From NCBI RefSeq assembly GCF_051903065.1, contig NZ_CP178439.1: a stretch of DNA of 64,000 bases; one strand, 5' to 3'. Shown here piece after piece: positions 15,001 to 18,000 of the stretch (positions are counted from its first letter, which is position 1; each line of letters begins with the position of its first letter). Made by a program: the position numbers. The DNA comes from Escherichia coli. GTDB taxonomy: Bacteria; Pseudomonadota; Gammaproteobacteria; Enterobacterales; Enterobacteriaceae.

Positions 15001-18000
15001 CCCTGATCGCCGGCGCGGTTTCTTCCTCCCTGAACCGCATGCAGACTTGCCGCCTCGGACACCCCGAGGCGGTTTTTTTTCGCCTCGCTCGAGCATCGCC
15101 GCATCCGACGATGCCGAGACGACCAGGCCGCGCACGTCGAGCTGCAGCATCGCCATTGCCGACGATGGCACCAGGTCGCCGGCGGTGGCCACCGACCTCG
15201 AGCTCGCATCGCCACATCCGACGATGCGCGCCGGCGTCGACCATCGCCAGGTCTGACGATGGCGGCCGCCCTGCCCTGGATCTCGCATCGCCATTTCTGG
15301 CGATGAGATCCACGGAGCGGCCATTTAGACCCGCCAATAACGACCCGGCCAAGATAAATCGCATGACGGCCTTTTTGGCCGGGGGTAGCATGACCGGACA
15401 CTTTGCGTATGCCCAAAGGAGCCCGCAAGTATGCGCAGGACGAAGCCAGTAGCCGCGCCGATGGTGGCGCGGGTCTATCTGCGCGTCAGCACCGACGCGC
15501 AGGACTTGGAACGCCAAGAGGCGATCACTACGGCCGCGAAGGCCGCCGGCTACTACGTCGCCGGCATCTACCGTGAGAAGGCATCCGGCGCACGCGCCGA
15601 CCGGCCTGAGCTGCTGCGCATGATCGGCGACCTACAGCCCGGCGAGGTGGTCATTGCCGAGAAGATCGACCGCATCAGCCGCCTACCTTTGCCCGAGGCC
15701 GAGCGCCTGGTGGCCTCGATACAGGCCAAAGGCGCACGCCTGGCCGTCCCTGGCGTGGTCGATCTATCCGACCTGGCGGCCGAGGCCCAGGGCGTCGCCA
15801 AGATCGTGCTGGAAGCCGTGCAGATCATGCTTTTTCGCCTGGCCTTGCAGATGGCCCGCGACGACTACGAGGACAGGCGCGAACGCCAGCGCCAAGGCAT
15901 TGAGTTGGCCCGCCAGGCCGGGCGGTACAAGGGCCGCCGTGCTGATCCGAAGCGCCGCGCCCAAGTTGTCGCGCTGCGCAAGTCCGGCTACAGCATCAAC
16001 AAGACCGCCGAGCTGGCCGGGTACAGTGCGGCCCAGGTGAAACGGATATGGGCCGAGGTCAGCCAGGCCGAAGCGAAGCAGCACGGCGCGTTCGTGGAGG
16101 ACGCATTGACGGAAGCCGATGCCCTGGCCGCTGTCGGCCAGGATGAGCGCCAGGAGGAAAGGGCATGAAGAAGCCGAACCAAGACGACGAGCCGTTTTTC
16201 ATCACCGAGGAGATTGCGGCCGAAATGATCGCCGGCGGCTATGAGTTCGAGCTGCCGCCCATTCCTTGCACCATCCGCCTACGCGACGTGCTGGAGCGCA
16301 TGACCGATGCTGAGCTAGCATTGCAGCCGGGCGAGATCGCCGACCAGGAGCGTGAACGCTGCCGGCGCAAGCCGTGTTCAACCTCATGATCTGGTCATGG
16401 TATTTTTCATGGCACTGAGCCTGATAGTTCTTGCAAATTGTTGTCACTAAAGGGTTTTGTGTGCTTGTTTACAATCGAGTGGGAGTGACGGGCACTGGCT
16501 GGCAATGTCTAGCAACGGCAGGCATTTCGGCTGAGGGTAAAAGAACTTTCCGCTAAGCGATAGACTGTATGTAAACACAGTATTGCAAGGACGCGGAACA
16601 TGCCTCATGTGGCGGCCAGGACGGCCAGCCGGGATCGGGATACTGGTCGTTACCAGAGCCACCGACCCGAGCAAACCCTTCTCTATCAGATCGTTGACGA
16701 GTATTACCCGGCATTCGCTGCGCTTATGGCAGAGCAGGGAAAGGAATTGCCGGGCTATGTGCAACGGGAATTTGAAGAATTTCTCCAATGCGGGCGGCTG
16801 GAGCATGGCTTTCTACGGGTTCGCTGCGAGTCTTGCCACGCCGAGCACCTGGTCGCTTTCAGCTGTAAGCGTCGCGGTTTCTGCCCGAGCTGTGGGGCGC
16901 GGCGGATGGCCGAAAGTGCCGCCTTGCTGGTTGATGAAGTACTGCCTGAACAACCCATGCGTCAGTGGGTGTTGAGCTTCCCGTTTCAGCTGCGTTTCCT
17001 GTTTGCCAGCCGGCCCGAGATCATGGGGTGGGTGCTGGGCATCGTTTACCGCGTCATTGCCACGCACCTGGTCAAGAAAGCGGGCCATACCCACCAAGTG
17101 GCCAAGACGGGCGCGGTCACCCTGATCCAGCGTTTTGGATCGGCGCTCAATCTGAATGTTCACTTCCACATGCTGTTTCTCGACGGTGTGTATGTCGAGC
17201 AATCCCACGGCTCAGCGCGTTTCCGCTGGGTCAAGGCGCCGACCAGCCCAGAGCTCACCCAGCTGACGCACACCATCGCCCACCGGGTGGGTCGCTATCT
17301 GGAACGGCAAGGCCTGCTGGAACGGGATGTCGAAAACAGCTATCTGGCCTCGGATGCGGTGGATGACGACCCGATGACACCCCTGCTGGGGCACTCGATC
17401 ACTTACCGTATCGCTGTCGGTTCACAGGCGGGGCGAAAGGTGTTCACTTTGCAAACTCTGCCGACCAGTGGTGATCCGTTCGGTGACGGGATTGGCAAGG
17501 TAGCCGGGTCCAGCCTGCACGCCGGCGTGGCGGCCAGGGCCGATGAACGCAAGAAGCTCGAACGGCTGTGCCGGTACATCAGCCGCCCGGCGGTATCCGA
17601 GAAGCGGCTGTCGTTAACACGAGGCGGCAACGTGCGCTACCAGCTCAAGACGCCGTACCGGGACGGCACCACGCACGTCATTTTCGAACCATTGGATTTC
17701 ATTGCAAGGCTGGCCGCCCTGGTACCGAAGCCCAGAGTCAACCTAACCCGCTTCCACGGGGTGTTCGCACCCAACAGTCGGCACCGGGCGTTGGTCACGC
17801 CGGCAAAACGGGGCAGGGGCAACAAGGTCAGGGTGGCTGATGAACCGGCAACACCAGCACAACGGCGAGCGTCGATGACATGGGCGCAACGGCTCAAGCG
17901 TGTTTTCAATATCGACATCGAGACCTGCAGCGGCTGCGGCGGCGCCATGAAAGTCATCGCCTGCATTGAAGACCCTATAGTGATCAAGCAGATCCTTGAT

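What the first reader, a model, noticed from the sequence alone, without database searches (positions are those of the whole stretch)
15094..16389. Five-palindrome array upstream of an orphan serine recombinase in a GC-rich module
Five imperfect 20-bp palindromes (CATCGCC-N6-GRCGATG) spaced 35-59 bp lie directly upstream of a 245-aa serine recombinase with a coupled 74-aa ORF. The arrangement looks like a multi-subsite res/crossover site or an autoregulatory operator array, but it matches no Tn3-family res site I recognise. GC content of about 65 percent implies acquisition from a high-GC donor.
Basis: partly seen in the sequence, partly recalled or inferred. Interest (0 to 1): 0.5.

Follow-up and report, generated by a model that had tools for sequence, protein, structure and literature searches.

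The report
IncP-1β plasmid relic: repeat array plus resolvase
The five palindromes are a stranded copy of a known but still unexplained repeat family of IncP-1β broad-host-range plasmids, not the target site of the resolvase gene next to them, so this is an ordinary fragment found in many resistance plasmids.

Summary
Five exact CATCGYC-N6-GRCGATG palindromes lie at 15094-15305, followed by a 245-aa serine recombinase and an overlapping 74-aa ORF, at about 66% GC.

Window 14847-15355 is 99.8% identical to the IncP-1β plasmid R751, and 14847-15417 is 99.65% identical to pAKD14. This is the traC-parA intergenic region, cut on the left by IS26. The palindromes belong to the "clustered inverted repeats" of IncP-1β backbones (Thorsted 1998; PMC11997246). 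These repeats occur in 4-5 clusters around each backbone.

The repeats track the regulator gene upf31, whose promoter carries one copy between -35 and -10. They do not track the recombinase:
- The RP4-type ParA is 76% identical but has none of these repeats.
- Close ParA homologues outside IncP-1β have none upstream.

The recombinase is a ParA-family multimer resolvase. Its own site is probably the roughly 110 bp between the last palindrome and the ATG. The window changes parent sequence exactly at the centre (GTAT, 15407-15410) of a different palindrome, CTTTGCGTA|TGCCCAAAG. That looks like an old resolvase crossover.

upf31 is absent from the window, so the array is probably inert here. The module is ≥99% identical in more than 1,600 plasmid records. 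Verdict: already known, low interest.

The parts
14838..14851 (.). Right terminal inverted repeat of IS26 (TTTGCAACAGTGCC). It forms the left boundary of the GC-rich module. The IS26 transposase gene is at 14077-14799.
   Evidence: Read directly from the sequence. Pfam DDE_Tnp_IS240 hit on 14077-14796. Annotated as IS26 in identical plasmid records.
14852..14945 (+). Last ~31 codons of an IncP-1β traC (primase) gene, truncated by IS26. The stop codon TAA is at 14943-14945.
   Evidence: 99.65% identical to the end of traC plus the intergenic region in pAKD14 (L005 6818-7388), and 99.8% identical to R751.
14986..15048 (+). Two hairpins with CCUCCC loops in the traC 3' region. This is a candidate small RNA or 3'UTR element and is not part of the finding.
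   Evidence: Sub-threshold Rfam hits to C-rich-loop sRNA families. RNA fold z = -3.9. The loop is conserved while the stems change in other IncP-1 lineages.
15049..15081 (+). Intrinsic terminator of traC: a 10-bp GC-rich stem followed by T8.
   Evidence: Terminator scan. Conserved in pBP136, pC1-1 and L016.
15094..15113 (.). Palindrome P1, CATCGCCGCATCCGACGATG. IncP-1β clustered inverted repeat.
15148..15167 (.). Palindrome P2, CATCGCCATTGCCGACGATG. It is preceded by CAG, giving the published core CAGCATCG.
15207..15226 (.). Palindrome P3, CATCGCCACATCCGACGATG. pBP136 has only four copies in this cluster.
15242..15261 (.). Palindrome P4, CATCGCCAGGTCTGACGATG.
15286..15305 (.). Palindrome P5, CATCGCCATTTCTGGCGATG. 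It has the same spacer (ATTTCT) as the copy inside the upf31 promoter.
15315..15420 (+). Probable multimer resolution site (MRS/res) and promoter of the ParA-type resolvase. It contains GCCATTTAG (15320-15328) and its partial inverted partner around 15355-15362. It also contains a -10-like TAGCAT (15386-15391) and the site-I-like palindrome.
   Evidence: Same position and layout as the RP4-type MRS reconstructed from pBS228, and as the L036 and pBP136 regions. The res-hunter transposon Tn402 sits at the equivalent of 15355 in R751. The function is inferred, not shown.
15401..15418 (.). Palindrome CTTTGCGTA|TGCCCAAAG, the candidate crossover site (site I) of ParA. The parental sequence switches within GTAT at 15407-15410.
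   Evidence: Alignment A1: the window equals pAKD14 up to 15410 and differs from 15411 onward. p138R and L036 match the window from 15407 onward. Related palindromes lie just upstream of the start codon in the RP4-type, pBP136, X. citri, Comamonas, L018 and L036 relatives. This is the only copy in the window.
15431..16168 (+). parA, a 245-aa small serine recombinase of the RP4/RK2 ParA multimer-resolvase family. The catalytic Ser20 lies in YLRVSTDAQ and there is a C-terminal HTH_7.
   Evidence: Pfam. 76% identical to the IncP-1α ParA and 77% to the pBP136 ParA. 87% identical over 220 aligned residues to a ParA on a Gallionellaceae plasmid-like contig. The closest solved structures are the Sin and γδ resolvases.
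16165..16389 (+). 74-aa ORF overlapping parA by ATGA. It matches no family, and it ends where the sequence shared with the ISCR2-bearing contexts begins, so it may be a truncated or chimeric reading frame.
16600..18093 (+). ISCR2 (ISVsa3) transposase gene. The element forms the right boundary of the module and is followed by a DUF3363 remnant and floR.
   Evidence: Pfam Y2_Tnp and Zn_Tnp_IS91. Annotated as such in matching records.

Best explanation
The module is a captured piece of an IncP-1β plasmid backbone lying between IS26 and ISCR2. It holds the end of traC, the traC terminator, the traC-proximal group of the IncP-1β 'clustered inverted repeats', the promoter/res region of parA, and a parA gene.

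The five palindromes are double-stranded protein-binding sites of this backbone-wide repeat family. The most likely binder is Upf31, a regulator with a Dam-methylase-like fold and a KorA-like C-terminal domain. Upf31 represses its own promoter, and that promoter carries one copy of the repeat exactly between -35 and -10. In their native plasmid such arrays would concentrate Upf31, and through it perhaps KorB, at module borders. The window contains no upf31, korA, korB or trfA, so the array is most likely an inert passenger here.

The adjacent recombinase is a ParA-type multimer resolvase. It works on its own site of about 110 bp between P5 and the start codon. Strand exchange would occur at the centre of a different palindrome (15401-15418).

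The present gene and site form a hybrid. The DNA left of GTAT (15407-15410) is R751/pAKD14-type, and the DNA to the right comes from another plasmid related to L036/p138R. This is what one resolvase-mediated exchange between two heterologous res sites would leave behind.

Shown:
- Sequence identity to IncP-1β backbones.
- Distribution of the repeats.
- Position of the junction.

Inferred:
- Upf31 binding to the array.
- ParA acting at 15401-15418.
- Present-day inactivity of the array.
For: Identity of the module:
- 14847-15417 is 99.65% identical to pAKD14, and 14847-15355 is 99.8% identical to R751.
- R751 has the same five palindromes next to traC.

A backbone-wide family:
- pBP136 has 27 copies at up to 2 mismatches, against 1.3 expected. 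They form five clusters: traM/kfrC, klcB, downstream of trfA, upf30.5/upf31 and parA/traC.
- R751 shows the same clusters although it has no parA.

Literature:
- The same paper shows that Upf31 represses its own promoter (XylE 4.76 to 0.09) and proposes that it binds these repeats.

My own tests:
- The promoter TTGACA-GCATCGCCATTTCTGACGATG is conserved upstream of upf31 in seven lineages.
- In L016 the repeats flank upf31, while the Tn3-like resolvase operon has none upstream.
- Two Variovorax contigs with a 69% Upf31 homologue and no other IncP-1 protein carry 12 copies.

Against a ParA link:
- There are zero copies in all 89 kb of IncP-1α pBS228, although its ParA is 76% identical, including the recognition helix.
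- No copies lie within 450 bp upstream of six other ParA homologues.
- In L036 the copies lie 1.4 kb from parA, beyond two toxin-antitoxin pairs.
- The RP4 ParA needs only a 106-bp MRS (PMC5698047). The MRS reconstructed from pBS228 has no such palindrome.

Junction: alignment A1 and BLAST place the parental switch inside GTAT, at the centre of the 15401-15418 palindrome.

Absence of partners: tblastn finds no upf31, korA, korB, trfA or traC body in the window.
Against: - No binding experiment exists for either protein on this DNA. Upf31 binding to the repeats is a published proposal, not a result.
- R751 keeps all clusters although its upf31 is truncated and its parA is gone, so conservation alone does not identify the binder.
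- A class 1 integron (a Tn402-type 'res hunter') sits inside the array in pICP-4GES, at the window equivalent of 15178. IS1071 sits in the centre of the last palindrome in pC1-1. Either could mean that the resolvase complex or some other targeting signal extends into the array.
- The Variovorax upf31 homologue has no copy directly upstream.
- The true right-hand parent of the hybrid is unknown. The best proxies are about 85% identical in DNA, so the junction could lie slightly to the left of where I place it.
Confidence: 0.7

Rival explanations
1. The five palindromes are accessory or regulatory binding sites of the ParA resolvase itself. They would form an extended res that helps synapsis or autoregulates parA.
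For: The array lies directly upstream of parA in IncP-1β plasmids. Transposons that target resolvase-occupied res sites are found within or next to it: pICP-4GES at the equivalent of 15178, and R751 at 15355. The literature on res hunters is in PMC7765201 and PMC3960245.
Against: - Four other clusters of the same palindrome exist on the same plasmids. If they were resolvase sites they would invite deletions.
- The array is absent from every ParA relative outside IncP-1β, including RP4-type ParA with a near-identical HTH.
- The RP4 MRS of 106 bp is sufficient.
- In L036 the copies lie 1.4 kb away from parA, and in L016 they flank upf31 instead.
- The recombination fossil lies elsewhere.
Confidence: 0.1
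2. The palindromes act as single-strand hairpins, REP-like elements on the transferred DNA strand or on RNA. They might serve in priming, strand protection or transcript processing during conjugation.
For: - Each palindrome folds as a DNA hairpin of -5 to -10 kcal/mol.
- In pBP136, 13 of 16 imperfect copies have a T·G rather than a C·A opposition on the strand that carries the oriT nick motif, which is the transferred strand.
- The clusters sit at operon borders.
Against: - The same 13:3 bias is explained equally well by local transcription direction or by common descent of tandem copies.
- Across 130 distinct copies, pair 6 is non-Watson-Crick in 52%.
- The 6-bp 'loop' has a conserved asymmetric sequence ([A/G]NTTCY). 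This fits a duplex protein site better than a hairpin.
- No Rfam family matches the array.
- One copy sits between -35 and -10 of a promoter shown to be autorepressed.
Confidence: 0.07
3. The repeats have no host-plasmid function. They are simply preferred landing sequences, an insertion hot spot, for transposons. This was the original suggestion for R751.
For: - By my recollection of the abstract, Thorsted 1998 says the repeats 'may form the basis of a hot spot for insertion'.
- The trfA-oriV and traC-parA clusters coincide with the two classic accessory-DNA sites.
- IS1071 lies in the centre of a palindrome in pC1-1.
- An integron lies inside the array in pICP-4GES.
Against: - The arms are invariant while spacers and flanks drift between lineages. 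That implies selection for the plasmid's own benefit.
- The clusters in klcB, after traM and at the upf31 promoter are not known insertion sites.
- This idea does not exclude the regulator-binding explanation.
Confidence: 0.08

Closest known systems
IncP-1β clustered inverted repeats ('IR groups', core 5'-CAGCATCG-3'; Thorsted et al. 1998, discussed in PMC11997246)
   Same: The sequence is the same. The window array is 99.8% identical to the R751 traC-proximal group. The arms, the spacer consensus and the position after the traC terminator all match.
   Different: Here only one of the 4-5 groups is present. It is cut out of its backbone and lies on an enterobacterial resistance plasmid without upf31, korB or any other IncP-1 gene.
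RP4/RK2 ParA-MRS multimer resolution system (parCBA)
   Same: The recombinase is 76% identical to IncP-1α ParA. The region between promoter and start codon has the same layout, with a GCGCATTT-type repeat and a TGGGTA|TACCCA-type palindrome.
   Different: There are no parB or parC genes, as in IncP-1β. The protein has a C-terminal extension of about 40 aa. The site is a hybrid of two lineages. Activity has not been tested.
Tn3/γδ/Sin resolvase res sites (three or two subsites, crossover at site I)
   Same: The enzyme is a small serine recombinase with a C-terminal HTH. Its closest solved relatives are Sin and γδ resolvase. Exchange at the centre of an inverted repeat fits the family mechanism.
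   Different: The five palindromes do not correspond to res subsites. Their sequence, spacing and distribution are unrelated to the recombinase.
KorA/KorB/KorC operator networks of IncP-1 plasmids
   Same: Both are short palindromic operators repeated around the backbone at operon borders. The proposed binder, Upf31, has a KorA-like C-terminal domain predicted to contact KorB.
   Different: The sequence is different and the sites occur in tandem arrays of 3-5 rather than singly. They are restricted to IncP-1β and a few relatives, and binding has not been demonstrated.

Membership tests
IncP-1β clustered inverted repeats (Thorsted 1998 IR groups) | Inverted repeat built on the core (CA)GCATCG | tested here: met
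   All five copies have CATCG arms. P2 reads CAGCATCG and P1, P3 and P5 read GCATCG. The published core is quoted.
IncP-1β clustered inverted repeats (Thorsted 1998 IR groups) | Location in an IncP-1β backbone, in the group next to traC/parA/upf31 | tested here: met
   14847-15355 is 99.8% identical to R751 and 14847-15417 is 99.65% identical to pAKD14. The array follows the traC stop and terminator.
IncP-1β clustered inverted repeats (Thorsted 1998 IR groups) | The same repeat recurs in several clusters around the backbone | tested here: met
   Five clusters in pBP136 and in R751. The window itself retains only one cluster.
IncP-1β clustered inverted repeats (Thorsted 1998 IR groups) | Bound by Upf31 (proposed, not established) | not testable with these tools
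   Only indirect support exists. A copy lies between -35 and -10 of upf31p in seven lineages, and autorepression was measured in PMC11997246.
Serine-resolvase res site (applied to the five palindromes) | The site accompanies the recombinase gene in its relatives | tested here: not met
   None in IncP-1α pBS228. None upstream of six other ParA homologues. In L036 the copies are 1.4 kb away. R751 keeps the array without parA.
Serine-resolvase res site (applied to the five palindromes) | Strand exchange occurs at the centre of one subsite | tested here: not met
   The only recombination junction detectable lies at 15407-15410, about 100 bp downstream of P5, in a different palindrome. This is indirect evidence from sequence mosaicism.
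Serine-resolvase res site (applied to the five palindromes) | The recombinase binds the subsites | not testable with these tools
   Needs EMSA or footprinting.
RP4/RK2-type ParA multimer resolution system (applied to 15315-16168) | Small serine recombinase with Resolvase catalytic domain, nucleophilic Ser and C-terminal HTH | tested here: met
   Pfam Resolvase 4e-21 and HTH_7 1.6e-5, with the YLRVSTDAQ motif.
RP4/RK2-type ParA multimer resolution system (applied to 15315-16168) | Close sequence relationship to characterised ParA | tested here: met
   76% identity over 197 aa to the pBS228 (IncP-1α) ParA, and 77% to the pBP136 ParA.
RP4/RK2-type ParA multimer resolution system (applied to 15315-16168) | About 100-bp site with inverted repeats overlapping the operon promoter | tested here: inconclusive
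   The layout and the start-proximal palindrome are conserved. The subsites were not delimited experimentally, and the window copy is a hybrid.
RP4/RK2-type ParA multimer resolution system (applied to 15315-16168) | parC and parB genes in the operon (IncP-1α form) | tested here: not met
   Only parA and an unrelated 74-aa ORF are present, as in IncP-1β plasmids.
Known structured RNA / REP-like hairpin element (applied to the array) | Match to a curated RNA family, or base pairing maintained across copies | tested here: not met
   No Rfam hit overlaps the array at a meaningful score. Pair 6 is non-Watson-Crick in 52% of 130 copies, and the 'loop' is sequence-conserved.

The most novel reading that the evidence does not exclude
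The stranded array may still be active in trans. It is carried on well over a thousand enterobacterial resistance plasmids. It could act as a decoy that titrates Upf31, and through it KorB, from any co-resident IncP-1β plasmid, changing that plasmid's gene expression, cost or stability. Alternatively, the array could be a previously unrecognised accessory element that the ParA synapse uses in IncP-1β but not in IncP-1α.
Probability: 0.07. Interest if true: 0.55.

Novelty: already known. Interest (0 to 1): 0.2.

Why it matters
There is little new here. The repeat family was described in 1998, and the ParA resolvase family is a textbook plasmid-stability system. The exact module is a common passenger of IS26/ISCR2-floR resistance regions.

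The analysis contributes three things:
- It guards against a tempting but wrong assignment of the palindromes to the neighbouring recombinase.
- It adds comparative support for the recent proposal that these unexplained IncP-1β repeats belong to the Upf31 regulator.
- It pinpoints a probable ParA crossover site, from a natural hybrid, that could be tested directly.

Tried and rejected
- Private res site of the recombinase: rejected on distribution.
- Known structured RNA: the Rfam scan at E≤1 found nothing on the array, only sub-threshold sRNA-like hits upstream of it.
- Hairpins on the transferred strand: I located the oriT nick motif and found a 13:3 strand bias in pBP136. The bias is confounded with transcription direction and shared descent. 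The 130-copy motif shows a conserved asymmetric spacer and frequent mispairing, so I demoted this idea.
- Origin of the 74-aa ORF: it has no Pfam or NCBIfam family. The only distant tblastn hit shown is 46% to an Acidiphilium plasmid. It shows no similarity to the ORF that follows parA in L036. Left unexplained.
- Genome-wide search for double palindromes: about a third of the 45 loci were false positives. Most of these came from a coding repeat (…IAGSGDV…, GIN-type β-helix proteins) and a few from unrelated repeats.
- Papers by Sota 2007, Eberl 1994 and Thorsted 1998 were not available in the library. Statements about them rest on my memory or on citing papers.
- The promoter scan found no consensus σ70 promoter in 14850-16500. 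The -35/-10 I mention for parA and upf31 are read by eye.
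Full report
**What is there**

The pattern CATCGYC-N6-GRCGATG matches exactly five times in the window, at 15094, 15148, 15207, 15242 and 15286, and nowhere else. Shuffled sequence gives 0.02 expected matches. About 125 bp downstream lies a 245-aa ORF (15431-16168) with Pfam Resolvase and HTH_7 domains. A 74-aa ORF follows and overlaps it by ATGA. GC is 66.5% across 15001-16000, while most of the window is 35-50%.

**Context**

- To the left is IS26: transposase at 14077-14799, terminal repeat ending at 14851.
- To the right is ISCR2 (transposase at 16600-18093), then a DUF3363 remnant and floR.
- The 1.6-kb module is at least 99% identical in more than 1,600 plasmid records from Klebsiella, Escherichia, Salmonella, Acinetobacter and others.
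- In the second context I examined in detail, the same IS26 and ISCR2 boundaries recur.
- The window as a whole matches large enterobacterial resistance plasmids.

**Origin of the left part**

- Window 14847-15417 is 99.65% identical to the IncP-1 plasmid pAKD14, and 14847-15355 is 99.8% identical to R751.
- This stretch is the last ~31 codons of traC, the traC terminator, the five palindromes, and the region leading up to parA.
- The accessory-free IncP-1β archetype pBP136 has the same arrangement with four palindromes.
- In pC1-1, IS1071 has landed in the centre of the last palindrome.
- In R751, Tn402 is inserted at the equivalent of 15355 and parA is gone.

**The palindromes are a backbone-wide family**

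- pBP136 carries 27 copies at up to 2 mismatches, against 1.3 expected. They form five clusters: after traM, inside klcB, downstream of trfA, between upf30.5 and upf31, and between parA and traC.
- R751 has the same clusters, including the identical five next to traC, although it has no parA.
- From 130 distinct copies the motif is G-CATCG[C>T]C-[A/G]NTTCY-G[A/G]CGATG-C. The arms are invariant and the spacer is conserved and asymmetric.
- This is the repeat family described for R751 by Thorsted et al. (1998).
[quoted passage not shown] It shows that the neighbouring gene upf31 represses its own promoter, and proposes that Upf31 binds the repeats (PMC11997246).

**Testing recombinase against Upf31 as the partner**

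Evidence against the recombinase:
- The window protein is 76% identical to the ParA of IncP-1α plasmid pBS228, the RP4/RK2 type. This includes the HTH recognition helix. Yet all 89 kb of pBS228 contain no copy of the palindrome.
- RP4 ParA needs only a 106-bp site (PMC5698047). I reconstructed that site from pBS228 by removing a Tn5053-like insert, and it has different inverted repeats.
- Six further homologues of 56-88% protein identity (p138R about 85% in DNA) have no copy within 450 bp upstream. They come from Comamonas, Xanthomonas, Pseudomonas syringae, an E. coli IncP-like plasmid, Acinetobacter and Achromobacter p138R.
- In the contig L036, whose ParA is the closest relative found (87% over 220 residues), two copies lie 1.4 kb away, beyond two toxin-antitoxin pairs.

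Evidence for Upf31:
- In an IncP-1-like lineage with a 75% Upf31 (L016), the copies flank upf31. The resolvase operon there is Tn3-like and has none upstream.
- The promoter TTGACA-GCATCGCCATTTCTGACGATG, with the palindrome filling the -35/-10 spacer, is conserved upstream of upf31 in seven lineages.
- Two Variovorax contigs with a 69% Upf31 homologue and no other IncP-1 protein carry 12 copies.
- Phage Dam-like relatives of Upf31 (58-60% identical) have none.

The window encodes no Upf31, KorA, KorB or TrfA.

**The recombinase and its real site**

A different palindrome sits just before the start codon in this family:
- window: CTTTGCGTA|TGCCCAAAG (15401-15418)
- X. citri: TTTGGGTATGCCCAAA
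- RP4-type and L018: TGGGTATACCCA
- Related forms occur in pBP136, Comamonas and L036.

The window is identical to pAKD14 up to 15410 and diverges from 15411 onward. The recombinase gene beyond that point is only 77% identical to the pAKD14 and pBP136 parA. It is 85% identical to p138R and L036, whose similarity to the window begins at 15407. The parental switch therefore falls within GTAT, at the exact centre of that palindrome, with only 4 bp of shared sequence. This is the expected scar of a serine-recombinase exchange at site I between two heterologous res sites. It is not the pattern that homologous recombination would leave.

Transposons that target res sites are inserted 20-60 bp upstream of this centre in three plasmids:
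- R751
- p138R
- pBS228

I infer that the functional res spans about 15315-15420. Only one such site exists in the window, so it would act only on plasmid multimers.

**Alternatives**

- Hairpin idea: each palindrome can fold as a DNA hairpin. In pBP136 the imperfect copies show a 13:3 bias for T·G on the transferred strand. This bias is equally explained by transcription direction or shared ancestry. Half of all copies are mispaired at position 6/15, and the 'loop' is sequence-conserved.
- Rfam finds nothing on the array.
- Insertion hot-spot idea: this is compatible with the data but does not explain the strict conservation of the arms.
- Accessory role in ParA synapsis: this cannot be excluded without experiments. 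An integron lies inside the array in pICP-4GES.

**Verdict**

The finding is a real feature but an already-described one. The array is one group of the IncP-1β clustered repeats. The gene beside it is a ParA-family multimer resolvase with its own site. In this resistance plasmid the array is most probably a functionless passenger. I put:
- about 0.97 on the identification
- about 0.8 on 'not the ParA site'
- about 0.55 on Upf31 as the binder
- about 0.7 on the crossover position.

Noticed in passing
window 14986-15081 (+): Between the traC stop and the first palindrome lie two hairpins with CCUCCC loops, followed by the intrinsic terminator. Rfam gives sub-threshold hits to C-rich-loop sRNA families (anti-hemB 35.6 bits against a threshold of 49.5, plus Atu_C7, ncS54, mmgR, ar14 and CcsR1). 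The RNA fold z-score is -3.9. The loop UUUCCUCCCUGA is kept while the stems differ in pC1-1, L049, L064 and L016, and pBP136 lacks the hairpins altogether. This is a candidate anti-Shine-Dalgarno-type sRNA or traC 3'UTR element of IncP-1 plasmids.
   Followed up: partly
window 10539-12440 (-): A 633-aa OLD-family ATPase-Toprim protein (Pfam AAA_15; PADLOC Old, AriA and GajA models, E 1e-14 to 1e-19) lies in a 35-40% GC stretch just left of the resistance region. A 169-aa ORF with no family match lies next to it (12546-13055). This is a possible single-gene anti-phage defence locus.
   Followed up: partly
window 13216-14622 (-): This ORF carries the C-terminal DDE domain of a Tn3-family transposase, and its N-terminal part runs into IS26. 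It is a transposase remnant truncated by IS26.
   Followed up: no
window 16390-20439: ISCR2 (ISVsa3) is followed by a DUF3363 (relaxase-like) remnant and floR. In other plasmids the same IS26-module-ISCR2 junction is followed by a truncated ISCR2 and tet(A).
   Followed up: partly
L036 9600-11100 (Gallionellaceae MAG contig): The closest relative of the window's ParA (87% over 220 residues, with the same C-terminal extension) sits divergently from RHH-antitoxin/RelE-type toxin genes, with the putative res between them. This is the same architecture as parCBA-parDE of RP4.
   Followed up: partly
L050 and L051 (Variovorax guangxiensis contigs 28 and 29): Two 8-kb contigs carry 12 copies of the palindrome and a 69% Upf31 homologue, but no other protein similar to the IncP-1β backbone. 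The repeat-Upf31 pair therefore seems to exist outside IncP-1β.
   Followed up: partly
L025, L028, L031-L034, L059, L060: The double-palindrome pattern also matches a coding repeat, ATCGCCGGNTCNGGCGATG (…IAGSGDV…), spaced 54-57 bp apart in β-helix (GIN-type) proteins of unrelated bacteria. Anyone searching for this motif should expect these false positives.
   Followed up: yes
L002/L015 (p138R) and L007/L009 (pBS228): Both plasmids carry a Tn402/Tn5053-family terminal repeat (GTGCAGTCnnCTTCTGAAAATGACA) inserted 20-60 bp upstream of the ParA start-proximal palindrome. On first reading I mistook these transposon ends for res subsites.
   Followed up: yes
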